DNA of 61,067 nt, counting the filler, from Basidiobolus ranarum (Eukaryota): NCBI GenBank assembly GCA_040143965.1. It is 9 parts of 9 records of this genome, joined end to end, with 100 filler letters (N's around TTAATTAATTAA, not from the genome) between each part and the next. Parts side by side here need not be neighbours in the genome. Positions count along the whole stretch, not along the records: positions 1 to 6,715 come from JASJQH010001261.1; 8 more parts are not named here. One strand, 5' to 3'. Shown one piece after another: positions 1 to 52,435 of the stretch. The notes under the pieces were generated by a model. That model saw only the letters and a list, made by a program, of their open reading frames with translations. It searched no databases and was not told the origin of the DNA. Position 1 is the stretch's first letter; each line of letters opens with the position of its first letter. A program made the translations under genes and the position numbers.

Positions 1-195
1 ATACTCCATTGCTTGAGGTGCTACCTGATATTGTGGTTGTATAACGCAAGAGCCGCCATGTTGTCCACACGATCTATCCTTGTAAGTGGTGCTTGCAACT
101 GCATTTGCAAAACCTGGTAAATTATGGAGTGGTGCTGCCAATGTTCCTTGTACCAAGATGCATGAAGAGACCAAAAGAGTTAGGACGGTTTGCAT
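1..195 (-). CDS. Secreted precursor family, copy 1 (5' part only, cut by window/contig start)
   Basis: Manual translation from ATG at 195: MQTVLTLLVSSCILVQGTLAAPLHNLPGFANAVASTTYKDRSCGQHGGSCVIQPQYQVAPQAMEY, clearly paralogous to copies 2-5. Not in the ORF track. Confidence 0.9.
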   Translation of the reverse strand, partial: MQTVLTLLVSSCILVQGTLAAPLHNLPGFANAVASTTYKDRSCGQHGGSCVIQPQYQVAPQAMEY

Positions 196-825
196 GATTG
201 AGGAGTACAGAACACGAATGAAGCAGATACTGTATAGCCAGAAAGTATCTGCAGAACTGTATTTTATACACTTCTGACGAGTTATCATTTACCACACTCT
301 TTAATCTCGCAAACTATCTTTTATATTGTCCAGTGTTGTTTGCTATGTTTTGTTCATCAAAGTGTATAGAGTTGTAAATCAATTTATGCCATATATCAGT
401 ACCTATCTGGTAGTTTTGATACTTGTCCCACTATCTATACGTACTAGATATCAAACCTAAAGTCATTAGCTTGGTTCCTTTATGAATTGCAAGGTACAAT
501 CATGTCAGGTTATACACTGAACATTATTTATAAACATGCACGTAGATTGAGTCAGAGAATTTTTCATATTCCTATAATCACAATAATAGTGAAAAAAATT
601 GAACAGGAAACAAGAAATGCTCTTTAATGAGAACTTCATGATAAGAGAAGGAATCTTGTGGCTTTACCCTCGAATTGGACTGTAGATTCCTGATCTCGTT
701 CATTAAAAACTGAGCATAGCGCAAATTATATTTAGACTAGCATTTATTGAAATATGACAACAGTAACCATAGCCAATGCTATCATATTATAGCATCATGA
801 GGAATATGGAAGAGTTGATTAGAAT

Positions 826-1527
826 TTAGTGTCTATTGCCACTGAAATATCTGATTTTAAAGGAACGGTGAGCAAATTTCTTGTATTTCTTGTAGGCTCT
901 TTTGGGTCGGTGCATTGGCCACTGAGGAATGATGATCTGGGGTTGAGGTGGTTGAGCTGGTTGGTATATAGTCTGGTCAACCAACTGAGCTTGATCAAAT
1001 TGATTCGAATTAGACAGAGCTTGACTATTTTGGGATGTGCGACCTTTCACTTCGTCAAGTAGTGCTTGTTTGGGCTGAAGTTGGCTCAGATCAACATTCC
1101 ATGAAGGAGCGCCTCGGGTTTGGTCCTCAGATCGAGACTGTTCATCTTCAGCGGGTGCTTGTTCGATTTGGCCTTGATCAGGAGTAGATTCATCATCAGT
1201 TGGCTGCTCTGCACCTTGAGTATCTTCAGCTGGAGCTTGTTCCATTTGACCTTCATCTGGGGTGGACTCTTCGTCTGCTGGCTGCTCTTCACTCTGTTGG
1301 TACACTGGCATCATTTGTGGTTGAGCATAACTATACTCTCCCACTTGAGGGGTAGCCTGATATTGAGGTTGTATAGCGCAAGAGCCAACTCGTTCTCCAC
1401 AGGAACTATCGTTGTAAGTGGTGCGTGCAACTGCATTTGCAAAACCTGGTAAATTATGGAGTGGTGCTGCGATTGTTCCTTGAACCAAGATACATGAAGA
1501 GACCAAAAGAGTTAGAGCTGTATGCAT
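826..1527 (-). CDS. Secreted acidic-repeat protein with cationic C-terminal peptide, copy 2 (233 aa)
   Basis: Hydrophobic N-terminus ending QGTIA-AP, CX6C, two acidic 26-aa repeats, ends PKR-AYKKYKKFAHRSFKIRYFSGNRH; intronless; TATAAAA upstream. Confidence 0.92.
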   Translation of the reverse strand: MHTALTLLVSSCILVQGTIAAPLHNLPGFANAVARTTYNDSSCGERVGSCAIQPQYQATPQVGEYSYAQPQMMPVYQQSEEQPADEESTPDEGQMEQAPAEDTQGAEQPTDDESTPDQGQIEQAPAEDEQSRSEDQTRGAPSWNVDLSQLQPKQALLDEVKGRTSQNSQALSNSNQFDQAQLVDQTIYQPAQPPQPQIIIPQWPMHRPKRAYKKYKKFAHRSFKIRYFSGNRH

Positions 1528-2187
1528 GCTTACAGAGTTGTTGATGACAATGATACTGATATAATTAAGGAAAGAGTTGTACTTTTATACATATAGAACC
1601 AGGAGGAATCATGATATGCAGCACTTTAATCTCACTAACTCTCTGTTTTGTTAGATATCACGCAAGGCCATAATTTATATGGAATAAATCCGACGTGCTT
1701 AGCCAATTTTTTAGTCAGATATAGTACTTCTACTCGATTAGAGCATTAATAGTATTTTTGTGTTAAATCGAATTCGAATTATGGTTGATTTAGCAATACA
1801 GTGAGCTATACTAGTACTCACGACTTCTTTTACTAACCTTTAAGCTCTACTGCTAACAATATTACATATACACACCACTGTTTTTTCCAAAGACTGAAGC
1901 ACACATATGTTAAAAATGGCCATTCTACCTGAATATCTTCCTTCTCTATACTTTTAGCTTATTCACGAAAGTCTCACTTCTATTAACCATTATTATTATA
2001 TCTTATTTGGCGTATGGTTCATAATGGTCCTCCATGGATTTGAACTAAAGATATTTCGAATTCTTTATTGAAGTCTGAACATGTTACATACCATATTTAT
2101 AATGATTTTAATCGCCATAGTAGTGCATAATAGCTATTTTTATCTTGTTATACTAACAAAGAAAGTGTAGTTTACATATATCCGAGC

Positions 2188-2907
2188 TTAATGTCTATTC
2201 CCACTAAAATATCTGATCTTAAAAGAACGGTGTGCAAATTTCTTGTATTTCTTGTAGGCTCTTCTGGGTCGGTGCATTGGCCACTGGGGAATGATGATCT
2301 GGGGTTGAGGTGGCTGGGCAGGTTGGTATATAGTCTGGTCAACCAACTGGGCTTGGTCGAATTGGTTCGAATTGGACAATGCTTGACTACCTTGGGATGC
2401 GTGGCCTTTCACTTCGTCCAGTAATGCTTGTTTGGGCTGTAATTGGCTCATGTTCAAGTTCCATGAAGTGGGAGTTGCTGAACTGGACGGAATGTCTTGC
2501 GATTGATCCTCAGATTGAGACTGGTCGTCCTCAGCGGGTGCCTCTTCCATTTGACCTTGATCAGGAGTAGACTCATCGGTTGGCTGCTCTGCACCCTGAG
2601 TATCTTCAGCAGGAGCCTGTTCAACTTGGTCTTGATCAAAAGTGGATCCTTCGCCTTCTGGTTGTTCTTCACTCTGTTGGTATACTGGCATCACTTGTGG
2701 TTGGGCATAACTGTACTTCATTATTTCAGGGGTTGCCTGATATTGGGGCTGTATAACGCAAGAGCCAGCCTGTTCTCCACAAGATTTATCCTTATAAGTA
2801 GTTTGCGCAACCGCATTAGCAAAACTTGGTAGGTTATGGAGGGGAGCGGCCAATGTTCCTTGAGTCAATATAGAAGCAGAGATCAAAAAAGCTAGAGTAG
2901 TTTGCAT
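2188..2907 (-). CDS. Secreted precursor family, copy 3 (239 aa)
   Basis: Same architecture; ends PRR-AYKKYKKFAHRSFKIRYFSGNRH. Confidence 0.92.
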   Translation of the reverse strand: MQTTLAFLISASILTQGTLAAPLHNLPSFANAVAQTTYKDKSCGEQAGSCVIQPQYQATPEIMKYSYAQPQVMPVYQQSEEQPEGEGSTFDQDQVEQAPAEDTQGAEQPTDESTPDQGQMEEAPAEDDQSQSEDQSQDIPSSSATPTSWNLNMSQLQPKQALLDEVKGHASQGSQALSNSNQFDQAQLVDQTIYQPAQPPQPQIIIPQWPMHRPRRAYKKYKKFAHRSFKIRYFSGNRH

Positions 2908-3700
2908 GCTTGTAAAGGTGTCAATGCCAATGATCCAAGTGTAGAATGATTACCTATCCACGAGGAGAACCACCTTTTATACTACTATTACCTGAAAACA
3001 TCATATAGTACACATTTTTAATGCAACTAGCTCTTCCTCTAGAATGTAGTTTAGTTTCAATTGGATTTAAGTGATTAACGAATTTTCGCAATGAACTCTT
3101 CGTACATTCATTCCATTCTGACAGCAGCAATACGACAAAATACCATCACGTGACAATTTGTGTCAACAATTTTTCTAAAAGCTTTAGTATTAAATAACGT
3201 CTATTCTGTAGCACTTTATAGATTACTCTGTCATATGGTTTATACGATTGTTGTTTTGATTTTTAAAGCTAGCTTGTGCCATTTATGAGAGTGGTTGTAT
3301 ATCAGTAATAATTGACCGCTCAAGCGCGAGGTGTTGGCATTGGAATAGAAGGACTGTATTCTCATAGCTTCGGAATATATGAGTATATATTTGTCTTCAT
3401 AATATTCCGCGGATCTCACTGATAGTGTCGACGGTAGCATAGATTCTCCTCGATCGTGCTCAATACTGAACATACTGGTTAAATATTTCACATCTACTAA
3501 ACTTCTGCCGTTACTATGGATATTAAAGTAAAATCTGTGAATTACATGCGAGTTGAACAGTGTTCTTGGTAATGGGTTCCCGATGAAGTGCAAGATTAAT
3601 CACATTCAATCTGTTTATACTTGGACGAACATTTATTCATGTAAGAGACTGTAGTTGCTGTTATGTATCAATAAGAGAGACACTAATCAATGAAGAGAAC

Positions 3701-4363
3701 TTAGTGTCTGTTTCCACTGAAGTATCTGATTTTGAAAGAACGATGGGCAAATTTCTTGTACTTCTTATAAGCTCTTCTGGGACGGTGCATTGGCCACTGG
3801 GGAATGATGATCTGGGGTTGAGGTGGCTGAGCTGGTTGGTATATAGTCTGGTCAACTAACTGGGTTTGATCGAATTTATTCGAGTCCGACAGAGCTTGAC
3901 TACCTTGGGATGCGTGGCCTTTTACTTCGTCTAGTAGCGCTTGCTGGGGCTGTAGTTGATTCAGGTCAACATTCCATGAAGGAGTAGTAGGAGTCTGTGC
4001 CATTTGACCTTGGTCAGGAGTGGATTCATCTTCTGTTGGCTGTTCTGTACTCTGCGAATCTTCGGCAGGAGCTTGTTCCATTTGGCCTTGATCAGGAGTG
4101 GACTCCTCATCTGCTGGCTGTTCTTCAGTCTGCTGATACACTGGCATTGCTTGTGGTTGTACGTAACTATACTTTCTCGCTTGACGAGTTGCCGGATATT
4201 GGAGTTGTGCATCGCATGACCCCGTCTGTTGTCTACAGGATCTGTCTTTGTAAGTGGTTTGTGCTACTGCATTTGCAAACCCTGGTAGGTTATGGACTGG
4301 AACGGCCAATGCTCCTTGAATCACGACGCAAGATGATATCAAAGTGAGTAGAATAGTTTGCAT
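3701..4363 (-). CDS. Secreted precursor family, copy 4 (220 aa)
   Basis: Same architecture, about 1.6 acidic repeats; identical C-terminal peptide. Confidence 0.92.
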   Translation of the reverse strand: MQTILLTLISSCVVIQGALAVPVHNLPGFANAVAQTTYKDRSCRQQTGSCDAQLQYPATRQARKYSYVQPQAMPVYQQTEEQPADEESTPDQGQMEQAPAEDSQSTEQPTEDESTPDQGQMAQTPTTPSWNVDLNQLQPQQALLDEVKGHASQGSQALSDSNKFDQTQLVDQTIYQPAQPPQPQIIIPQWPMHRPRRAYKKYKKFAHRSFKIRYFSGNRH

Positions 4364-4430
4364 GCTTACTGAATGATTAATGCTGATAAACTAAGAACAG
4401 AATGAATATCGACTAACGGGAACTAAGCAC

Positions 4431-4437
4431 TTTTATA
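4431..4437 (-). promoter_or_regulatory. Conserved TATA box of precursor genes (also 262-268, 1583-1589, 2975-2981, 5831-5837)
   Basis: TATAAAA on the minus strand 56-68 nt upstream of the ATG in all five copies, although the surrounding spacers are diverged. Confidence 0.75.
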
Positions 4438-4962
4438 CAAGTAATACCATACCTACAAGTGCTATCTGAAGTGCTTATATAATCTATCAAACAATCTTTT
4501 GCTAATAGGTACATAATAAGCTAACAAGTAGACTACTAAATTAGAAAATATTTACCTAACGGCCCAAGGTATATATTAGTTAATTAATGGGTATCAATTG
4601 GTCCGTCGAGACAATAAAAACTATGTCTAACTTTCTTACCAGCGTATGTTTGCAGCTTTTAGAATTGTTGCCCAACCAAATCATCAGTTTATTTTCATTG
4701 AATACATATCCATATGAAAGAGTGCTCTATCTACCTGTACGGGTATAACTACTGTGGCTAGTAGTAATTCGTACTCTTTATGTGGCAAATATTATACTCC
4801 AAAGGGTTGTACTATGTACTTTGAAAGTAGCAATAATAACGAAACACCGATACTTTAACATGAGTTGTTAGTGTTAATATTCAGAACACTTTATAGAAGG
4901 TTCAGGTTTTATATTCATAATTGCAAGGAGTTATGTAAATAGTCGGTGAAAAAGATGGAGGT

Positions 4963-5763
4963 TTAGTGTCTGTTGCCGCTAAAATATCTTATCTTGAAAG
5001 AACGGTGAGCAAGTTTCTTGTATTTCTTGTAAGCTCTTCTGGGTCGGTGCATTGGCCACTGAGGAATGATGATCTGGGGTTGAGGTGGCTGAGCTGGTTG
5101 GTACACTGTCTGGTCAACTAACTGGGTTTGATCGAATTGGTTTGAATCTGACAGAGCTTGACTACCTTGGGATGCGTGGCCTTTCACCTCGTCAAGTAGC
5201 GCTTGTTTGGGCTGGAGTTGATTCAGATCGACATTCCATGAAGCAGGAGTAGAGGTATAGGAAGGTCCTCCTTGAGTTTGATCCTCAGACTGAGCTTGTT
5301 CATCTTCAGCGGAAGCCTGTTCCATTTGACCTTGATCGGGAGCGGACTCATCATCCATTGGCTGCACTGCGCCTTGAGTATCTTCAGCTGGAGCCTGTTC
5401 CATTTGACCTTGACCAGGAGTGGTATCAACTTCGGTTGGTTGTTCTGTACTTTGATCATTTTCAGCTGGAGCCTGTTCCATTTGGCCCTGGTCAGGAGTG
5501 GACTCCTCGTCTGCTGGCTGTTCTTCAGTCTGCTGATACACTGGCATTGCTTGTGGTTGGACATAACTATACTTTCTCGCTTGACGAATAGCCTGATATT
5601 GGGGTTGTACATCGCAAGGCTCAGTCTGTTGCCCACAAGATCTGTCTTTGTAAGTGGTTTGTGCCACTGCTTTTGCAAACCCTGGTAGGTTATGGACTGG
5701 AACGGCCAATGCTCCTTGAATCACGACGCAAGATGATATCAAAGTGAGTAGAATAGTTTGCAT
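4963..5763 (-). CDS. Secreted precursor family, copy 5 (266 aa)
   Basis: Same architecture, three acidic repeats; tail AYKKYKKLAHRSFKIRYFSGNRH (one F>L change). Confidence 0.92.
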   Translation of the reverse strand: MQTILLTLISSCVVIQGALAVPVHNLPGFAKAVAQTTYKDRSCGQQTEPCDVQPQYQAIRQARKYSYVQPQAMPVYQQTEEQPADEESTPDQGQMEQAPAENDQSTEQPTEVDTTPGQGQMEQAPAEDTQGAVQPMDDESAPDQGQMEQASAEDEQAQSEDQTQGGPSYTSTPASWNVDLNQLQPKQALLDEVKGHASQGSQALSDSNQFDQTQLVDQTVYQPAQPPQPQIIIPQWPMHRPRRAYKKYKKLAHRSFKIRYFSGNRH

Positions 5764-6320
5764 GCTTACTGAATGGTTAATGCTGATAAACTAAGAACAG
5801 AATGAGTATCGGCTAAGGGGAACTAAGCACTTTTATACAAGTAAAAGCAACTCAATAAGTGCTATTCGATGGGCTTTCATAATCTATCAATCGTTCTTTA
5901 TCTAATATGTACATAATAAGCTATGAAGGAGTGTACTAAATTGGGATGTATATACTTAGCGCCACTCAGCCACGGTAGTTTAAACACTATGGCTGACTTG
6001 TTTGCCAACGGATGTCAGTAGGTTTTAGAATAGTTGCCTGACCCAATCATCAATTTCTTTTCACTGTAAATATGTAAACATTGGAAAAGTGCTCTTTACG
6101 GGTCTAACAAATATAACTAGTAACTTGTACTCTTTATGTGGCTAATATTATTTTCCGACGAATTATACTGTATACATATTTGAAAATAGCAACAGCAATG
6201 AAGCAATTTAACTACCATCTATTCGTTGGTTTGACGCTATTGATACTTGAACATGGCATGTTAGTGTTAATATTCTGAATACTTTTATTGAGGATTCAGG
6301 TTTTATATTCGTACTTACAA

Positions 6321-6432
6321 GAGGTTATGGTGGCTGAGCTGGCTGGTACACCGTTTGGTCAACCAACTGGGTCTGATCGAATTGGACAGTACTTGACTAC
6401 GTTGGGATGCGTGGCCTTTCACTTCATCAAGT
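6321..6432 (-). pseudogene. Internal fragment of a sixth precursor copy
   Basis: Encodes LDEVKGHASQRSQVLSN then frameshifts; DNA matches the DQ.QLVDQTVYQPAQPP region; lacks the N-terminus and the cationic tail. Confidence 0.85.
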
Positions 6433-6445
6433 TGTGGTATATCCG

Positions 6446-6715
6446 TTATAATTGACTGCTCAAGCGCAATGTGCGGGTATTGTAATAGAAGGTATGCATT
6501 CTCATAGCTGTAAAATGTATATGAGTATATATTTGTCTTCATAATATTCCGCGGATCTCACTGATAGTGTCGACGGTAGCATAGATTCTCCTCGATCGTG
6601 CTCAAATACTGAACATACTGGTTAAATATTTCACATCTACTAAACTTCTGCCGTTACTATGGATATTAAAGTAAAATCTGAGAATTATATGCGAGTTGAA
6701 CAGTGTTCTTGGTAA
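6446..6715. repeat. Duplicate of inter-copy spacer 3305-3572
   Basis: Near-identical sequence (gagtatatatttgtcttcataatattccgcggatctcactgatagtgtcgacgg...gttcttggtaa). Confidence 0.9.
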
Positions 6716-20429: not shown

Positions 20430-21548
20430 GCCCAGGTTGCGAAGCTGCCACACTAAAAGGTCCTCAAAGTAGTGACTCTGATGACGGTACTGGCAATGCC
20501 CGCAAACAGATAGTACGTTCTCAAAAATTTCAAATAGATCATTATTCGGTTCGTTTTATCTTACCTAATCCTTCATTTCCATCAGATTGGGTTTGCCAAA
20601 TTCCGTTCCAGATTGGAGGCTCTTCAGGCTCGTGACGTCCTCAACGGAAGAAAAGTAGACGCCGATAGAGGTTGTGTCTTGAAAGCTGAAATGGCCAAGA
20701 AAAATTTGCTCACTAAGCGTGGCCTTTCCAATGATAATAGCAATAATCAACTTGGAAACGTAAGCATTAACCTTACACAGGCCCTTACCCCCAATAATGA
20801 CGTCGGGCTCTCTGTAAAAAAAGGATTTAGACCTCTTGAGAGCAGTAACACTGCTGCTGCAGTTGCTGCCTATGATGTGCTTCCATGTGGCCCTATTCTT
20901 CCTTCGGACCTCCTTTCCCCTCAACCACAACTTCATGAATTCTCGGTCAATCCAGAAAATGGAGCCTCTCCAACTGCTTTTGAGGATGAAAGAATCGACA
21001 GCCTTCGTGAAACTGGCGGACCGCCAGGACTAAATGTTCCTGCTTCTCGTGTAGTTGGATACAATTCTAATCGTCTAACTGGACTTGATGCTTTTGCTTT
21101 CCCCAAATTTACCGGAGCCAACTTCAATAGCACGGGAACTTTCTTTGGAAATAGCAATAGTATCGTTGCGGCAAATGAAGGGAATTTCTCTATGAATACC
21201 TCTGAACCTTCGTTCTCTCCTACTCCCTCTAGTAATGCTAGTATCAGTTCAAGTCAGCGTGTAAACTCCGGAGATCAAAATCCCCCTTGTAATACTCTAT
21301 ATGTGGGTAATCTTCCCATGAACACTATGGAGGAGGAGCTACGCCAGCTATTCGCCAGCCAACCAGGGTATAAGCGACTCTGTTTCCGTATGAAACCTCA
21401 CGCAGGGCCTATGTGCTTCGTAGAGTTTGAAGATGTTACACATGCCACTCGTAGTATGAACGAACTTCAGGGACACCTACTTAGTAATTCGATAAAAGGT
21501 GGAATACGACTAAGTTATTCCAAGAATCCACTTGGTGTACGACAGTAG
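20430..21548 (+). CDS. Scw1/Whi3-family RRM RNA-binding protein, 5'-truncated
   Basis: [31 protein letters not shown] (first RRM) and [13 protein letters not shown]...[10 protein letters not shown]...[15 protein letters not shown]; intron 20513-20585. Confidence 0.92.
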
Positions 21549-23701: not shown

Positions 23702-24235
23702 TTATTTTCCGACCAGTTTCAAAATCAATGCCCTTCTTTCCTCTACAGATAAATCTTCTCTGATAGCCAGTACTGGGCAACTGAGCTCTTTCATCCACAT
23801 TTCATGGATGATCAAGCTTCTTCCAGTTGCCCCACTATCATAACCAGCCGACCAATCTATAAACTCTTGCGACATTTGAATTCTTTCCGGGACCGTATAA
23901 ATAATATCTCCATAACGTTCGTACTCTCTCTTTTTGAGCCTTTCTAGTCTCACTTCAGGTGGAACATACAGAAAAACTGCAAAGTCAAAGGCGGTAAGCC
24001 ACTCTTCACCCCAATTAACAAGAGAGCCACCAATTATCCAGCTCTCTTGCTTTGCTAAATCTTCATGTAATAATTCCAAGCGTTTTGCTCGTTCTCTCTT
24101 CACCATATAAGGGGGATCCGAAACTTCCCAAAAATAGTCATCGCTATCAAAATACGGAATATTAAGTACTTTCGATAGATCGTTGCCCTGTGTGGTAGAA
24201 CCCGCACCAGAGGCCCCAAATATGTGAATTTTCAT
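23702..24235 (-). CDS. Intronless bacterial-type adenylate-kinase-like P-loop protein (AAA_17/18-like, 177 aa)
   Basis: MKIHIFGASGAGSTT, FDSDDYFW, WIIGGSLVNWG, VFLYVPPEVRLERLKKRE, WSAGYD, HEMW: motifs I recognise from a bacterial small-kinase family. Confidence 0.85.
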   Translation of the reverse strand: MKIHIFGASGAGSTTQGNDLSKVLNIPYFDSDDYFWEVSDPPYMVKRERAKRLELLHEDLAKQESWIIGGSLVNWGEEWLTAFDFAVFLYVPPEVRLERLKKREYERYGDIIYTVPERIQMSQEFIDWSAGYDSGATGRSLIIHEMWMKELSCPVLAIREDLSVEERRALILKLVGK

Positions 24236-34639: not shown

Positions 34640-37600
34640 TTGGAAATATTAATTAGATTGCTTCCACCAATTTTCACTATTTTCTGAATACTTCTCCAAA
34701 TCACCTCAATTTTTCACCTATGCCTTACAGGCATGTATGTTATGATCCAAGCACATCCAATAGTCCTACTTCATAGTAAACTATAAATAGGGCTTGTTCT
34801 AATTAATAAAACTTAAGTTTACAATTCACAAATCTAAATCTTGTGCAAGCTACTACCAAATCCCCTAAATACTTTGAATAGGTTATGAGTGCCAGGCTAG
34901 CTATTAAAGTAAAGTTGACCAGTACTATTACCAACACCTTGTATCCACAGAGATGTTTGCTAGTGACTACTTTCACCTTCGGAAGTTCAATATGCAAATA
35001 GTGCTAGAAGACAAGGACCTTTGGGGATATGTTCAAGGAGAAGAAATTGAGCCAAACCAACCATCAGAAGCTATCCTTGCCTTTCACAAGATGCAGAGGA
35101 AAGCACTCTCCACACTTTGTCTACATCTGAAAGACTCTCAATTGAGACACATGCACTGAGCTAATATCATCTAAAATGCTTGGAAAACACTTGAGAGACA
35201 GTTTGAGACCAAAAGACTGACTAATAGACCATATCTCTGGGCAAAACTACTCCTAATATGGATGAGTTCTTATAATTTGGGGTATGTAAATAAGACACTT
35301 AGTTCTTATTGGATTGAATATGTCCAATCTATAGCTTTACAATGAAACAGAGCTATTGAACATGCCTACATTGTAACAAGCATGCCTGTAAAGCATGGGT
35401 GGAGATTTGAGATGAATTGGAGAAGTTTTGGGATAATAGTGAAAATTGGTAAGTGTTATCTAGTTGACATATCTATCAACTAGAGCAATAAAACACATTT
35501 TTGAATGGCAAAATTGAGTGCCAAGTAATCAGGACAAGACTGAACTAACTTCTAAGTAATGAGTTGCTCAACAGGCAAATTCTACTTAGGTGATGACTAT
35601 GCACAAGATGCAGCTGGTAAGGGCACACCATTTGCAAAATTTGGATAATGTACTCTATATACCAAATAAAGCCCAGAACCAAATGGCAGTAAGCCAAGCT
35701 ACAGCTCAGGGACTAAGCTTCACGTTTAGCATGGCAGGATGCACTATCACAGATCAGAATAATACCAAGTCTACTACAGAATTCAAAACTCAAAACTTAT
35801 ACAAGCTTGGAATCAACAAATTTCATCCTGAGCTTGCAAACATGGCCCAACACCAATTATATTAGCTGTTGGACATGGCATAGAAGATTAGGCCACTTTG
35901 GGGAAAATACTGACCCAAATGAGTGTAAATCAGCCTGTTTCAGACTTCAAAATTGAAAATATCACCAACTTGGATTTATATGAAGGTTGCATTCATGTAA
36001 AAATTCACAGACAGCCATTTTCAAGCTCTGGAGTGACCAAATCTTCTCCCAATCTTATTGTGATTTATTCTGACTTATGTTGGCCTATGAAAAAATCCAA
36101 CTAGGTGGCAAAAGATACTTCATCACCTTTATTCTTGATAAAAAAAGATATACTTGGGTATTCTTTCTCAAATCACTATCAGAAGACTTAACTATGCTCA
36201 TGCACTATGGAGTAATGGTAGAGAAGAAATCTGCACATAAAATAAGGGCACTTAAGCATGGTTGCAAGGGAGAATTGTGCTCTAAAAATGCTGGTAGTTA
36301 TTGCTCTAAACATGCAATTAAGCAACAAACTGCTAAACCATATACTCCACAGCAAAGTAGAGGTGCAGAACCTGCTAATAGCACCATATTAGAGATTGCT
36401 AGATTCATGATAAAAGATCAAAAGCTAGATCAGCAATGTTAGGCTGAATATGTCTCCACTGCAGTCTATCTTGAAAACAGATGCCCATCAAGATTGCTTC
36501 AAAATTCCACTCTAATAAGGCCCTGTATGAATCAAAACCAAGTGCAGATCATCTCAGGATCTTTGGGTGCACAGCATATAGCCTAATTCCAGCTTAAAAA
36601 TGCTCCTAATTGGAATATAAAAGCAGTAAATGCATATTTCTTGGTTACTGTGATGTATTGCAGGCCTACAGACTGCTCTATACCAAAAAACACAAGTTAA
36701 TCAAGTACAGTGATGTAACATGAGAAGGAAAAGATGCTTTTTCATCAAAAATCACAATTTCTGATCCAGAAAATATAATCAGCACTATTCAGAATGTGTT
36801 TGACAAGATTCCAGCTGTATCTCAGCTCAATTCAACCAAATTTACAGACCCTATTACTTCAGAAGAAGATTTAGGACCTTGAAGATCATCCAGAAGGACT
36901 AACAAGCTAGAGAGCTTATGGAACACTCCCAATGTGTATGTCTTCACTTATGCAGCATTGAGTGATAAGCTAGAGAATATATATCAAGCTCTGGAGTTTT
37001 CAAAATCCAAATTATGGGAAAAAGCAATATCTGATGAGTTTGTTTACTTCAGGACATTAAAAACATGGGTTTTAGGCCCTCTACCATCAGTGTGAAAGCA
37101 AATAGGTTGCAAATGGGTTTAAAAAGTCCAAAACCTAGCTGCTGCAATCATAGGTACAATGCTAGGTTAGTTGCAAAAGGTTATACCCAGACTCCAGGAG
37201 TTAACTTTACTGAATCTTTTGCTCAAGTAGCTAAGTTATCTCCATTAAATGAATTTCAGCACTCTCACCCAACTATAACTTTGATTGATCAAATGGATGC
37301 AAAAATAGCATTTCCATATGGATATGTAGAAATAGCAACCTTTATGGAACAACAACATGAATTTGTCAACCTAAAACATACTGATATGGTATTTATACTG
37401 CACAAATTGCTATATGGCCTCAAGCAAGCACCCAGAGTATGGTGCATCAAGTTAGATAGCTATTTAGAATCACTGGAATTCAAAAAATGCCCAGCATATT
37501 GCTGTTTTTACATCAAAACCACCAGAGATAGGATCCTTATCTTGACACTGTATGTGGATGATGTGATCATAGTCCCAAATGCTCAGGAAGCATTTAATCA

Positions 37601-38290
37601 GACAATAAGCTGCTTGTTAAAACAGTTTCCAATGATGGATATGTGTGCATTATAATATTTCCTTGTAATCCAAATCAAGAGAGATATGCTCAATGAGAAA
37701 GTTGTGCTGAATCTACCTAGATACAACCCAGACATCCTAAAATGCTTTAACACAGAGAATAGCAAGCCTATATCAGCAACAAAGGTTCCCTATGTGAAAT
37801 TAATCAAATTTTAGCCAATTTGGCTCAAAATGACTTATAACAAAGCAAGGAGTCCCTTATCAATCCATGGTCCCTATTTGATGTACTCAATGGTCAGGAC
37901 ACATCCAGATATTGCTTTGGCAGTGGGAACTGTCAGCTAGTATCTCAAACATCCAGGACCTGGGCACAAAACTGCAGTAAATTTAATATTCAAGTACTTG
38001 AGAGGAACTGCAGATTTAGTTCTGCAATAATTTGGCACTCCTGATGCACAAAACTTTCAAGGCTGCAATAATGCAAACTTGGGAAGAAACCATGATAATA
38101 GAAGATCAACAACTGGGTACACTTTTCTCTATGGTAATAAAGCTATAACTTGGAATAGTAAGAGGCATTCAGCTGTGGCACTTTACACTTCAGAAGTAGA
38201 GTATACAGCCACCTCTGCTAGTACACAAGAAGCTATGTAGCTAAGGATGTTACTTTCAGACTTAGGATACATGCAAATATGCTGTTCAAG
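34640..38290 (+). mobile_element. Near full-length degenerate Ty1/Copia element, with an inverted LTR at about 35273-35570 inside gag
   Basis: 5' LTR ends at 34880; PBS GGTTATGAG; gag LEDKDLWGYV; WHRRLGH; YSDLCWPM; YTPQQSRGAE; ARLVAKGYTQ; LYGLKQAPR; LYVDD; RSTTGY. Confidence 0.92.
34881..34893 (+). promoter_or_regulatory. Copia-type primer-binding site (internal tRNA-iMet type)
   Basis: GGTTATGAGTGCC directly after the LTR end; resembles GGTTATGGGCCC of Drosophila copia-like elements. Confidence 0.7.
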
Positions 38291-48899: not shown

Positions 48900-51800
48900 T
48901 ATATATGAGTTCAACAACATTGCAATGGGGCAAGTCAAGGTCTTGTGATGATGGGGCATTACAGTGTATGGTTTGGTAATATCCCAGCTAAGAGAAAAAT
49001 TGGGGATTCACAGACAAATTGCCATGTTGTATTTCCAAATGTATGAGATTGAAACTGTGAAATCAGCAGAAAGCACACACTACTTTTATTAAATACTTAC
49101 AGAATCAATATCATTACATATGTGGAAACCAGAATTAATGCAACATGCATTTGGCATGAATATCAAGTATTAAAGGTACAACAGAATCAGGACTTAATTG
49201 TCAAGTAGCAGGTATCTCATCATTCTTGAATACATTAGTAAAAGAATTACTTGACTCACCCATATCAGTAATTTGAAATTTGTTTGCCCATTTGTGGTCA
49301 ATATCTGGTAAACCATCTGTAGTGCTGAGAAAACACTCCTATTATCAGTAATGGTAATGCATATAATGTGATCAGCGGTGCACTTTTAAAATTCCAGTTA
49401 TTAAATATAAACATCAATCATCTTTAGCATGTTCTAAATGCTGCCTTTAGCAGATACAGAAATATTTGCAATTTTCAGATCATATCAGGGTGTTATGGGC
49501 AAACTAATATATCTTGTTGCTACATAGATATCTCTTCATCTATATTTTCATACAGAGAGGCTGGTTTTACTACCATTTAATGCAATTCAAGGTTATGCAT
49601 GGCTAAAGGTACCAAGACTGTTCTGCAGGAACTAAATTTAGCTACTGGGCCAAAGGTTATCTTGAACACCTCCTGGAGTCTGTGATTAACTGGTTACAAT
49701 GCATTTTGTTTAATACCTTTTAATAGCTCAGCCAGCTTGGTCTTTCACTTAATATAAACATTTGCAACATCTTTGCTTTCTACATGATGATTGTGTACTT
49801 ATAGCCCAGGTTTTATTGTCCTGGAGTGAAGAATGATGATCATCAGACATTGCACTTTCACTTGATCTTGATTCTAAACACTGCAAATGTGAATTGAGAG
49901 CCTGTGGCTTGTTTCAATATGCCCACAAAGTCTTGATATCTTCATTACAACTGTCCTACTAGTGGTTCAATTCCCCTTTTGAACAAATTTTTAGGTTCTG
50001 GATCTTTCTGTGTTCCAGTTGGGGTTATATATTTGGGCATACTGGACTCCTAAATTCATGGAAATTTGTTTTACACTTTCTCAAAAGTGCAGGTTGTGAT
50101 ATCTGGATCAACAACTGCAAGCTGTGAATCAATAAAGGGTTTCAAATGGAGTATAGTTTTGTAGCAATCTGGTTTGGTATTAACTATGACACTGACTGCT
50201 GTAGAGACTTATTCAACCCAATATTAGTAATCAATCTTTTTAATGTTTCAAGTATATAGATGCTGTTCCCAGGCCCACATAGTTCAGCGTGAATCAGGGG
50301 TAAGCTTAGTTTGTGTAGGGCTTTAAACCTAAAAATATGTAAAATGATCTAATTACCATATCAAGCATTGGAGCAAAAAGTACGTGCTTGCAAATCTCAA
50401 AACCAGCTGCTACATTGTATGAAGAAGAACATATTTATATATCAGGGAGATTTCCTAATCAAGGCCAAAAATAAGGTAGAGCATGTATACATGTATGGAA
50501 ATATGCAGAGCTGCATCAAGCAAAGCAACTCGGCAAAAGAAACATGTACATATCTCTTAAGTCCAACTTGAATATCCAGGGCATATATTCACAAGTTCAG
50601 AGGTTGCCACTTGTATCAGAAGAGTTGAGATCAATTCCAATTAGCAAAATTGTGAGTGGATTTAATCTCTCCAGAGTTTGAAAATGGCTGTCTGGTATAT
50701 TTTGCAATATGCATCCTTCACATTAAGCTAATTGGGTTATATTTTCAATTTCCAAGACTGAGACAAGCTGATTTTGAATCATTTGGGTCAGTTTGGTTCC
50801 CCAATGTGGCCCAAACTTTTATTCCACATTTGACATCATATTTCACCAGTTTTACCCAGTTTGCATGCTCAGAATGCAATTTGTTGATTTCTAGCTTGAA
50901 TCAGTTTTGAGGGTTGACCCCAGTAGATAATTTGATATATTCTGTTCTGTGATAGTGCATCCTCCCTAGGTGATCACAAAATATAGTTCTTGAACTGTTG
51001 GTTGGCCTATGGAGAGTAGCTTCTTGACTCTATTTGGTTCACAGAGTACATCAACCAGTTTTGCAGGTGATGTAGCTGATTTGATCAAAGTTGAGCACAA
51101 CTGTGCCTGAACTAACTGTATCAAGTGCATAGTCACCTCCTGAGAAGACTATCCTTGTTTAGATGGGTTTTAGGCTGAAAACTAATCTTTCTTGTTAGTC
51201 ACTTACTGGGAAGCTCCTTTATAAATGTGTTCTGTTTCAGAGGCTTCCTTAGTTGTTATTGATAGGGCTGAGACAATTAGACACCCCAATTAGTGTTTAC
51301 TTGATAAGATTGTTCCAATTTTAGTGTTCTCCCAAGATCCTCTTTTGGTAATCTTTGACTAAATAGCCAGGTTTCTTGCAAAACTTGCAGATCATGGATT
51401 TGCTATCAGAGGCACCATTATTGAGGCTTGTTGGCCATTTTAAAGCTCCCAAAATGCTTGATTTGCATTATTTTGCTGAGAATCAGATCTCCATTCTTCA
51501 TTCAAAAGCTTGGCTCCAACATGTTCCATGTTTAATAGCACTGATCTTGATTCTAGGTCAATTGGAAGGTTCCTTTATTCAACTGGCAGGCTCCTAAGTA
51601 GTTTTATGACTATGACATCCTTATATAGAGGTACTCCATTGATGAGAGCTGAGCTGCCATAGCTTGGATCATCTTGAATGACTTGCCATAGAACAACCAG
51701 AAATCATCTGAATTGAGAAACACTATTGTTATAGATATATCTTATGAGTCAGACTTTTAGTCTTAAAGAGTTCCTCAAGTGTTATCCAAGCACATTGGAT

Positions 51801-52435
51801 ATTTCTGGCAGAGTGCATGTGCCCCAATTCCAAGGCTCTTGGATGTAGACAAAGTGTAGAGAGTGCTTTCTTCTGTTTCTTATGAAAGACAAGGATAGCT
51901 CCTGGTGGTCCCTTTGGCTGTATTTCTTCTCCTGTAACAAATCCCCAAAGGTCTTTGTCTTCTAGCACCATTTGTTTTTTGAACTTCCAATAGTGAAAAT
52001 CTTCATTGTCAAACTTCTCTGTTATCACAGAAGTATTGGTAATAGTTCTAATAGATATTCCTTTAATAGCTAGCTGGGGGATCATTATCTGATCAATATG
52101 CTTAGGGGATTTAGAATTGTTTGGACAAGCTTTGGATTTGTGAATTACACAATCAAGTTCTATTGAAAAGCACATGTCCAATTCATAGTTAGCTATGAAA
52201 TAAAACTATAGACGTGATTAGATCAGAATATGGATGCTTTAAGGTGTGGGTGAAAATCTAAGGCAATTTGGAGAAGTTTGACAACAGAGTAAAATTTGGG
52301 GAAATCATCTAATTGATCCATCTATCAATTAGAGCAATGAAAACACAGCTTTGAATGACAGAACTGAGTGCTTATTATACAGAGTGTGAATATTCTAATC
52401 ACTTAACAACTGTTGTTATTTACCAAATTTCAACA
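48900..52435 (-). mobile_element. Highly decayed Copia element with 5' LTR (about 52095-52435)
   Basis: LTR begins TGTTG at 52435; gag FHYWKFKKQMVLEDKDLWGFV; CKFCKKPGYLVKD knuckle; integrase and RT relics. Confidence 0.85.

What the first reader, a model, noticed from the sequence alone, without database searches (positions are those of the whole stretch)
826..945. C-terminal tail is under strong purifying selection while the rest of the protein drifts
Seen: across copies 2-5 the last ~40 residues differ only by K/R at the dibasic site (the site is retained) and one F/L, yet the DNA differs at many third positions. The terminal Gly is GGC/GGG/GGA/GGC and the Ala of AHRS is GCT/GCA/GCC/GCT. 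The middle of the protein carries indels and many replacements. Inference: conservation is at protein level, not recent gene conversion, so the tail is the functional module.
Basis: partly seen in the sequence, partly recalled or inferred. Interest (0 to 1): 0.75.

Follow-up and report, generated by a model that had tools for sequence, protein, structure and literature searches.

The report
Conserved cationic tail, Basidiobolus secreted proteins
A row of duplicated genes in a Basidiobolus fungus encodes secreted, floppy, acidic proteins whose last 23 strongly positively charged residues have been kept almost unchanged by selection while the rest varies, which suggests the tail is the working part, possibly a peptide that is cut off, although its function is untested.

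Summary
Four intact minus-strand paralogues (826-1527, 2188-2907, 3701-4363, 4963-5763) differ in their last 40 residues only by K/R and F/L. The quoted Gly and Ala codons are exact.

- **Selection on the tail:** the last 46 codons give pN 0.009 and pS 0.43, a ratio of 0.02, against 0.22 for the whole gene. So few replacement columns in any 46-codon window occurred in 0.0001 of 20,000 column shuffles. The 3' flanks are unalignable directly after the stop codon.
- **Refinement 1:** only the final 23 codons carry abundant synonymous change (pS 0.74). The 18 codons before them are also conserved as DNA (pS 0.10).
- **Refinement 2:** the rest of the protein is constrained (ratio 0.15-0.30), not drifting freely.
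- **Refinement 3:** the conserved unit is about 85 residues long, made of a Q/N-rich core, a linker and the tail.

The family was found only in Basidiobolus. It has no Pfam or PDB relative and is predicted to be disordered.

My best reading, at about 0.4 confidence, is a prepro-protein. An acidic region masks a +8 cationic, aromatic C-terminal peptide that may be released at an R-P-[K/R]-R site. The main rival is an uncleaved binding or anchoring module.

The parts
1..195 (-). Copy 1, N-terminal 65 codons only. It is cut by the end of the contig.
   Evidence: ORF list and motif scan. The same 65-residue protein appears as P0041.
826..1527 (-). Copy 2, an intact single-exon CDS of 233 aa. Layout: signal peptide 1465-1527, acidic repeat region about 1105-1287, conserved C-terminal module 829-1080.
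   Evidence: AF2 gives a helix at residues 3-17 only.
829..897 (-). Copy 2 tail, the last 23 codons (A-Y-K-K-Y-K-K-F-A-H-R-S-F-K-I-R-Y-F-S-G-N-R-H). Net charge +8, 6 aromatic residues. The equivalents are 2191-2259, 3704-3772 and 4966-5034.
   Evidence: pS 0.74, pN 0.009; 15 of 23 columns vary synonymously only and 1 carries a replacement.
898..951 (-). Copy 2, the 18 codons P-P-Q-P-Q-I-I-I-P-Q-W-P-M-H-R-P-K-R. They include the R-P-[K/R]-R furin/kexin-type site (898-909). Both protein and DNA are conserved here.
   Evidence: pS 0.10; 2 of 15 degenerate, amino-acid-invariant codons vary, against 73 of 127 elsewhere (Fisher p = 0.0017, post hoc).
952..1080 (-). Copy 2 Q/N-rich core of the C-terminal module (L-Q-P-K-Q-A-L-L-D ... 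Q-T-I-Y-Q-P-A-Q). This is the part conserved across all subfamilies.
   Evidence: invariant columns; identity 0.56 between species sets.
2188..2907 (-). Copy 3, intact CDS of 239 aa.
3701..4363 (-). Copy 4, intact CDS of 220 aa.
4963..5763 (-). Copy 5, intact CDS of 266 aa, with three acidic repeat units.
   Evidence: 78-nt spacing of D4.
1582..1590 (-). TATA-like box (G-T-A-T-A-A-A-A-G in gene orientation), 55 nt upstream of the copy 2 ATG. The same 9-mer lies at 2974-2982, 4430-4438 and 5830-5838, 67 nt upstream of copies 3-5.
   Evidence: 4 matches in the window, all at these places; 0.77 expected by chance.
6329..6432 (-). Relic of a sixth copy. It is a core fragment with a frameshift. It lacks the 148 nt that hold the linker, tail, stop codon and first 27 nt of 3' flank in copy 5, and it lacks everything upstream of the core.

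Best explanation
**Shown.** The first contig of the window (1-6715) holds a tandem array of single-exon genes with TATA-box promoters. The genes belong to a family found only in Basidiobolus. There are four intact copies, one cut by the contig end and one relic.

Each protein has:
- an N-terminal signal-like hydrophobic helix;
- a variable, strongly acidic, repeat-bearing region;
- a conserved C-terminal module of about 85 residues, made of a Q/N-rich core, a Pro/Gln/Ile linker and a 23-residue tail of net charge +8 that is rich in Tyr and Phe.

The tail has been held almost invariant by purifying selection at the protein level, over a divergence at which synonymous sites are near saturation.

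**Inferred.** The protein is a prepro-form. It enters the secretory pathway, and the acidic region keeps the polycationic end soluble and inactive. In the window's subfamily a kexin/furin-type protease cuts after R-P-[K/R]-R and frees the 23-mer. The further K-K and K-[K/R] pairs may allow a shorter form.

The freed cationic, aromatic peptide would then act on a conserved, negatively charged target. That target could be microbial envelopes in the gut or soil niche, or less likely a receptor of the fungus itself. Tandem duplication would raise the dose of one and the same peptide. That would explain why all paralogues keep the tail while signal peptide, pro-region length and repeat number vary.
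For: - **Selection:** searches give a tail dN/dS of 0.01-0.02 with pS 0.43-0.74 and a permutation fraction of 0.0001.
- **No homogenisation at the 3' end:** (flanks 40-50% identical).
- **Real genes:** the TATA 9-mer occurs only upstream of the four ATGs. The full-length ORFs match annotated Basidiobolus ranarum proteins at 68-81% identity.
- **Architecture:** the region between the signal peptide and the site has net charge -11 to -23, against +8 for the tail. All [K/R][K/R] pairs lie in the tail region, apart from one R-K at residue 63 of copies 4 and 5.
- **Acidic N-region across the family:** net negative in 27 of 28 complete family members.
- **Cleavage-type site:** R-P-[K/R]-R precedes the tail in 11 of 13 ranarum-type members. 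That it matches the furin/kexin consensus R-X-[K/R]-R is my own knowledge.
- **Distant members:** P0044 and P0050 have an acidic linker followed by a Cys/Arg/Tyr-rich basic end. This is the same acid-then-base logic.
- **Accessibility:** the protein is predicted disordered (mean pLDDT 49.4), so a site there would be accessible.
- **Literature:** passages of PMC7329392 report that B. meristosporus has the most Kex2-processed repeat proteins of 1461 fungal strains. Kexin processing of secreted peptides is therefore plausible in this genus.
Against:
- The [K/R]-R site is not conserved outside the window's subfamily. It is absent at that aligned position in 11 of 11 meristosporus-type members and in the long-type members P0034, P0035 and P0037. 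Two of 13 ranarum-type members have R-K or T-R instead.
- Basic pairs inside a Lys/Arg-rich tail are expected anyway, so they are weak evidence for processing.
- The fixed core-to-end distance (43-45 residues in 31 of 42 sequences) and the conserved linker suggest that core, linker and tail work as one unit.
- From my own knowledge, host-defence peptides usually diversify in the mature part and conserve the prepro part. The pattern here is the reverse.
- The tail is not a marked amphipathic helix or strand. Its hydrophobic moment is within the range of shuffles.
- One family member, P0034, has a basic N-region of net +9 rather than an acidic one.
Confidence: 0.4

Rival explanations
1. **Uncleaved binding or anchoring module.** Core, linker and cationic tail stay on the secreted protein and act together. 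The tail sticks the protein to a negatively charged surface, such as the fungus's own wall or spore surface, mucus, or another organism. The variable acidic repeat region is the part that is displayed.
For: - The distance from the core motif to the C-terminus is constant at 43-45 residues in 31 of 42 sequences.
- Core, linker and tail are all more conserved than the N-terminal parts.
- The pattern of a conserved end plus a variable region that changes repeat number is, from my own knowledge, typical of surface proteins with a conserved anchor.
- The [K/R]-R site is not conserved across subfamilies.
Against: - An exposed R-X-[K/R]-R site in a disordered secreted protein would normally be cut in a fungal Golgi (own knowledge).
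- No fold is predicted for the module.
- No relative with a known binding function was found.
Confidence: 0.3
2. **Intracellular role.** The tail is a sorting, retention or quality-control signal, or a recognition site for a modifying enzyme. It is needed to make or route the protein and not for the protein's extracellular action.
For: Extreme conservation across all paralogues fits one shared endogenous partner. The family is disordered and shows no catalytic features.
Against: - No known eukaryotic sorting motif was recognised by inspection.
- Distant subfamilies replace the tail by unrelated Cys/Arg-rich ends. That is hard to reconcile with one conserved cellular receptor.
Confidence: 0.1
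3. **Homogenisation or DNA-level constraint.** The conservation of the tail comes from gene conversion among array members, or from a constraint on the DNA or RNA, and not from selection on the protein.
For: - The 18 codons just upstream of the tail have pS 0.10. They keep different synonymous codons for the same amino acid in all four copies.
- Conversion or recent duplication does occur in the array: copies 4 and 5 share a 92-nt identical 5' run.
Against: - In the last 23 codons, 15 of 22 amino-acid-invariant columns vary synonymously and pS is 0.74.
- The flanks diverge directly after the stop codon.
- RNAalifold gives a covariation term of 0, and 1 of 30 predicted pairs shows a double change.
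- This rival can therefore hold for the 18-codon patch at most, not for the tail.
Confidence: 0.03

Closest known systems
Kex2-processed repeat proteins (KEPs) of fungi (PMC7329392; passages read)
   Same: Both are secreted fungal precursors with basic-pair sites and gene families that are often lineage-specific and duplicated. Basidiobolus meristosporus is reported as the strain richest in KEPs (43).
   Different: KEPs are defined by tandem repeats separated by Kex2 sites. Here the 26-residue acidic repeats carry no basic pairs, and the only candidate product is a single C-terminal peptide. I could not check whether the paper's Basidiobolus type S-3 is this family, because its figure and supplements were not available.
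Host-defence peptide precursors of animals (signal peptide, anionic propiece, basic-pair site, cationic C-terminal peptide; e.g. amphibian skin peptide precursors, cathelicidins); recalled, not tested by any search
   Same: The order of parts and the charge logic match: an acidic region of net -11 to -23, then R-P-[K/R]-R, then a 23-residue peptide of net +8. Both occur in tandem gene arrays.
   Different: There is no sequence relation; the family has no hit outside Basidiobolus. The evolutionary pattern is reversed: here the cationic end is nearly invariant and the signal and pro parts vary. No activity is known.
Candida albicans Ece1/candidalysin-type kexin-processed secreted peptides and Ustilago Rep1 repellents; recalled
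   Same: These are fungal secreted polyproteins cut at Lys-Arg in the Golgi to release short functional peptides.
   Different: Those precursors yield several peptides, which are hydrophobic or amphipathic. Here there is one polycationic peptide at the C-terminus. No homology was detected.
Histatin-like His/Tyr/Lys/Arg-rich cationic peptides; recalled resemblance in composition only
   Same: Both are short, disordered, strongly cationic peptides with Tyr, Phe and His.
   Different: There is no alignment and no evidence of relation. The PDB search with the last 45 residues found nothing below E = 4.

Membership tests
Kex2-processed repeat proteins (KEPs) | N-terminal ER signal peptide | tested here: met
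   By inspection of the first 21 residues and the only predicted helix, residues 3-17. No dedicated signal-peptide predictor was available.
Kex2-processed repeat proteins (KEPs) | Tandem repeated peptides separated by Kex2 (K-R/R-R) sites | tested here: not met
   The 26-residue acidic repeats lack basic pairs. Basic pairs lie only in the tail region, apart from one R-K at residue 63 in two copies.
Host-defence-type prepropeptide architecture | Anionic propiece followed by a basic-pair site and a cationic C-terminal peptide | tested here: met
   Met in the window's four copies. [K/R]-R is present in 11 of 13 ranarum-type members but in 0 of 11 meristosporus-type members at that position.
Host-defence-type prepropeptide architecture | Conserved prepro region with a diversifying mature peptide | tested here: not met
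   The pattern is reversed: signal peptide dN/dS 0.76, tail 0.01-0.02.
Host-defence-type prepropeptide architecture | Release of the peptide and antimicrobial or membrane activity | not testable with these tools
   This needs peptidomics and assays.
Curlin-repeat / Q-N ladder functional amyloids (a lead from memory) | Match to the curlin repeat profile or to a solved curli subunit | tested here: not met
   No such Pfam hit at E up to 1 for the 4 window proteins or at E up to 10 for 10 divergent members. The PDB profile search found nothing below E = 5.
GPI-anchored wall proteins | C-terminal hydrophobic stretch after a small-residue omega site | tested here: not met
   The last 23 residues have net charge +8 and mean Eisenberg hydrophobicity -0.42.

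The most novel reading that the evidence does not exclude
Basidiobolus carries a genus-specific, dosage-amplified system for a ribosomal peptide. Dozens of paralogous precursors all deliver one nearly invariant polycationic, aromatic peptide of 16-23 residues. The fungus would use it in the vertebrate-gut or soil niche against competing microbes, or as a signal of its own. That would be the first host-defence-like or signalling peptide family described in Zoopagomycota. Its selection pattern, with an invariant product and a free-running precursor, is the opposite of animal defence peptides.
Probability: 0.25. Interest if true: 0.65.

Novelty: new variant of a known kind. Interest (0 to 1): 0.45.

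Why it matters
Basidiobolus is an understudied gut-associated fungus and an occasional pathogen. Its lineage-specific secreted proteins are all annotated as hypothetical.

This family is large: at least 28 cluster representatives in two species, arranged in tandem arrays. It carries one of the clearest within-gene contrasts in selection one can ask for, and that contrast points to a 23-residue element that can be synthesised and tested directly.

If the tail is a released peptide, it would open ribosomal bioactive peptides in early-diverging fungi. If it is an anchor, it would define a new way of fixing disordered acidic proteins to a surface. Either way, the finding turns an orphan family into a testable hypothesis.

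Tried and rejected
- **Whole-genome search:** no genome is held for this window.
- **Pfam:** nothing reached a curated cut-off, either for the 4 window proteins or for 10 divergent members at E up to 10. Sub-threshold names such as IFT57, ProSAAS and Myticin-prepro are taken as chance.
- **ESM Atlas:** no usable hit by features, and structure matches had TM 0.45 or less on a model of pLDDT 0.41.
- **AlphaFold2 with a 19-sequence alignment:** mean pLDDT 49.4 and no fold. I therefore ran no fold search, since a low-confidence model gives meaningless matches.
- **PDB sequence and profile searches:** nothing below E = 4.
- **Complex prediction on two copies of residues 150-239:** no verdict (score 0.00). 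This is evidence neither for nor against self-association.
- **Second module as an old duplicate of the core:** some long family members carry a second conserved module (P-L-L-R-Q-V-F-T-T ... K-Y-Q-x-G-P-S). hhalign gave probability 0.27% for a relation to the core (after a failed regex), so the idea is rejected.
- **Conserved RNA structure for the low-dS patch:** RNAalifold gave no covariation, so this is not supported.
- **Amphipathic helix or strand in the tail:** the hydrophobic moment was no higher than in shuffles.
- **Earlier scan notes:** nothing on this genome. The word search returned only unrelated analogies in other genomes.
- **Literature:** searches for 'Basidiobolus' with 'secreted', 'Kex2', 'antimicrobial peptide' or 'transcriptome', and for the locus-tag prefix K493DRAFT, listed no paper on this family. 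I read only listings and abstracts, plus passages of PMC7329392, PMC9391592 and bioRxiv 10.1101/2025.03.31.646025. Supplements were not available and could list these genes.

Full report
**Setting.** The window is 61,067 bases at 37% G+C. It holds 16 blocks of 44 N, in pairs at steps of about 6.8 kb. The stretches between the block pairs shrink steadily from 6715 to 6677 bases. The window is therefore a chain of separate contigs of a fragmented assembly, and only bases 1-6715 are true context for the finding.

The other contigs carry ordinary eukaryotic and retro-element fragments: RRM_1, AAA_18, RVT_2 and a copia-type gag. No whole genome is held for this window.

**The array.** On the minus strand of the first contig lie four intact ORFs, here called copies 2 to 5:

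| Copy | Coordinates | Length |
|---|---|---|
| 2 | 826-1527 | 233 aa |
| 3 | 2188-2907 | 239 aa |
| 4 | 3701-4363 | 220 aa |
| 5 | 4963-5763 | 266 aa |

- A fifth copy is cut by the contig start (bases 1-195).
- A decayed relic lies at 6329-6432. It has a frameshift, has lost the 148 nt that hold the linker, tail, stop codon and first 3' flank bases, and has lost everything upstream of the core.
- A 9-base TATA-like box occurs four times in the whole window, each time 55-67 nt upstream of one of the four ATGs. By chance 0.77 matches are expected.
- The ORFs run uninterrupted from ATG to stop. They match annotated full-length proteins of Basidiobolus ranarum at 68-81% identity. They are therefore real single-exon genes.

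**Checking the observation.** The protein alignment and codon alignment confirm every detail.
- The last 40 residues differ only by K/R (AAA versus AGA) and F/L (TTT versus CTT).
- The Gly codons are GGC/GGG/GGA/GGC, and the Ala codons of A-H-R-S are GCT/GCA/GCC/GCT. That Gly is the fourth residue from the end, not the last.

Nei-Gojobori counts pooled over the six pairs:

| Region | pS | pN | Ratio |
|---|---|---|---|
| Signal peptide | 0.31 | 0.23 | 0.76 |
| N-terminal mature part | 0.44 | 0.13 | 0.30 |
| Acidic repeats | 0.54 | 0.12 | 0.22 |
| Core region | 0.48 | 0.07 | 0.15 |
| Last 46 codons | 0.43 | 0.009 | 0.02 |
| Whole gene | 0.45 | 0.10 | 0.22 |

- By columns, the last 46 codons hold 2 replacement and 20 synonymous-only columns. 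The rest of the gene holds 67 and 55 (Fisher p = 4.8e-5).
- Against the neighbouring core region alone (12 and 17) the contrast is weaker, at p = 0.013.
- A window of 46 columns with 2 or fewer replacement columns arose in a fraction of 0.0001 of 20,000 column shuffles.
- The 250 bases after the stop codon are 40-50% identical after alignment, which is essentially unrelated.

**Refinements.**
1. *The synonymous changes are concentrated in the last 23 codons.* There pS is 0.74, and 15 of 23 columns vary synonymously only. The 18 codons before them (P-P-Q-P-Q-I-I-I-P-Q-W-P-M-H-R-P-[K/R]-R) are almost invariant as DNA, with pS 0.10. Only 2 of 15 degenerate, amino-acid-invariant codons vary there, against 73 of 127 elsewhere (Fisher p = 0.0017, chosen post hoc).
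   - Different synonymous codons for Pro, Gln and Ile are kept at fixed places in all four copies, so simple codon preference does not explain the pattern.
   - RNAalifold found no covariation.
   - I leave this patch unexplained. It could be a short conversion tract or a nucleic-acid-level constraint.
2. *Conversion or recent duplication does act in the array, but at the other end of the gene.* Copies 4 and 5 share a 92-nt identical run from the ATG, and their upstream regions are 78% identical.
3. *The rest of the protein is relaxed, not neutral.*

**Relatives.**
- The word-indexed search found 28 proteins at E of 0.01 or less: the window's own 4, 11 named Basidiobolus ranarum and 13 named B. 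meristosporus CBS 931.73.
- A profile built from 22 members was scored against 1.84 billion cluster representatives. Only 28 proteins reached E of 0.001 or less.
- Of the more distant of these, 10 of 10 that I looked up are from the same two species: 6 B. ranarum and 4 B. meristosporus. The remaining 14 new representatives were not looked up, but by sequence they are plainly the same family.
- One 11.7-kb B. ranarum contig alone carries seven members.
- In a tree of the C-terminal modules the window's copies interleave with B. ranarum copies, with weak support. The window therefore comes from the ranarum side of the genus.

**What is conserved across the family.**
- Between the ranarum-type and meristosporus-type sets, identity is 0.26-0.30 in the signal, N-terminal and acidic parts. 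It is 0.56 in the core, 0.48 in the linker and 0.68 in the tail.
- Across all subfamilies the only invariant residues lie in the core, of the form A-L-S-x-S-N-Q-F-D-Q-x-Q-x-x-D-Q-T-L-Y-Q.
- The end of the core lies 43-45 residues from the C-terminus in 31 of the 42 sequences that have it. 53 sequences were held, and 11 of them are fragments or fusions without the core.
- The tail motif K-K-Y-[K/R]-[K/R] ... F-K-[I/V]-R-Y-F-S-G-N-R is shared by most clades.
- The most distant members replace the tail with an acidic linker followed by a Cys/Arg/Tyr-rich basic end.
- The region between the signal peptide and the core is net acidic in 27 of 28 complete members. The exception, P0034, is net +9.
The other two have R-K and T-R. 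At that aligned position it is absent in 11 of 11 meristosporus-type members, of which 10 have K-K-Y-K-R a few residues further on.

**Structure and known families.**
- Pfam gives nothing at the curated thresholds.
- PDB sequence and profile searches give nothing below E = 4.
- The ESM Atlas gives no usable neighbour.
- AlphaFold2 with 19 sequences predicts only the signal helix, with mean pLDDT 49.4. The linker reaches 66-78.
- The protein is best described as intrinsically disordered.
- A homodimer job on the C-terminal module gave no verdict.

**How it most likely works.** What is shown is a secreted-type, disordered, acidic protein with a +8, Tyr/Phe-rich 23-residue end under extreme protein-level constraint. 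It is multiplied in tandem and restricted to one genus.

My preferred inference, at about 0.4 confidence, is a prepro-protein.
- The acidic region would neutralise the cationic end.
- In the window's subfamily a kexin/furin-type cut after R-P-[K/R]-R would release the 23-mer. That this site matches the protease consensus is my own knowledge.
- The peptide would then act on a conserved anionic target.
- Gene duplication would serve dosage.
- Passages of PMC7329392 show that kexin-processed secreted precursors are unusually numerous in B. meristosporus. The family described here fails the KEP definition, because its repeats are not separated by basic pairs.

The main rival, at about 0.3, is that core, linker and tail stay attached and form one binding or anchoring unit for an anionic surface, with the acidic repeats displayed. 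The fixed core-to-end spacing and the non-conserved cleavage site favour this rival.

An intracellular sorting or recognition role has about 0.1. Homogenisation is excluded for the tail proper.

**Novelty and value.** The family is unannotated. I found no paper on it in five literature searches. Only listings, abstracts and some passages were read, and supplements were closed.

The architecture is a known kind: signal peptide, anionic region, cationic C-terminal peptide. The family is new, is restricted to one genus, and shows the reverse selection pattern of classical defence-peptide precursors. I therefore rate it a new variant of a known kind, with moderate interest (0.45). The selection signal is solid and the element is directly testable, but the function remains inferred.

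Noticed in passing
window 898-951 (copy 2) and equivalents 2260-2313, 3773-3826, 5035-5088: The 18 codons before the tail are almost invariant as DNA in all four copies (pS 0.10, against 0.74 in the tail and 0.46 elsewhere). They use different synonymous codons for the same amino acid at fixed places. This could be a short conversion tract or a nucleic-acid-level constraint. No RNA covariation was seen.
   Followed up: partly
window 4272-4363 and 5672-5763, plus upstream regions: Copies 4 and 5 share a 92-nt identical run from the ATG, and their promoters are 78% identical, while their 3' halves are as diverged as those of other pairs. This indicates recent conversion or partial duplication at the 5' end only.
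   Followed up: partly
window 6329-6432 (minus strand): A relic of a sixth copy. Only about 100 nt of the core remain, with a frameshift. The segment encoding the linker, tail and stop codon is deleted, and the flank continues as in copy 5.
   Followed up: yes
window 3376-3572 and 6518-6715: Intergenic stretches 98-100% identical over about 200 nt, with a 77% identical stretch next to them. This is evidence of a larger duplicated unit, about 3.14 kb apart, within the array.
   Followed up: no
window 5261-5532 (copy 5) and aligned regions of other copies: Length differences between paralogues come largely from the copy number (1 to 3) of a 26-residue (78-nt) acidic repeat of the form E-Q-P-x-D-E-E-S-T-P-D-Q-G-Q-M-E-Q-A-P-A-E-D.
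   Followed up: partly
window 6716-61067: The window is a chain of separate contigs of about 6.7 kb, joined by paired 44-N blocks and ordered by falling length. The later contigs hold unrelated fragments: RRM_1 at 20613-21548, AAA_18 at 23702-24235, RVT_2 at 37065-37655 and a copia-type gag at 51729-52181.
   Followed up: partly
proteins P0025, P0029, P0034, P0035, P0037, P0044, P0048 (Basidiobolus): Long family members carry a second conserved module (P-L-L-R-Q-V-F-T-T ... N-[I/V]-K-Y-Q-x-G-P-S) N-terminal to the core. hhalign shows no relation to the core (probability 0.27%).
   Followed up: yes
proteins P0026, P0027, P0028, P0033 (B. meristosporus): In these gene models the family protein runs on past F-K of the tail into a neighbouring gene that holds the second module. 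They are probably annotation fusions that splice out the end of the tail and the stop codon. They suggest that the two module types are neighbours in that genome.
   Followed up: no
window 829-1062, 2191-2424, 3704-3859, 4966-5121 (plus strand): An antisense ORF of 51-77 codons stays open opposite the conserved 3' end in all four copies. I take it as a by-product of the sense codon content and did not test it.
   Followed up: no
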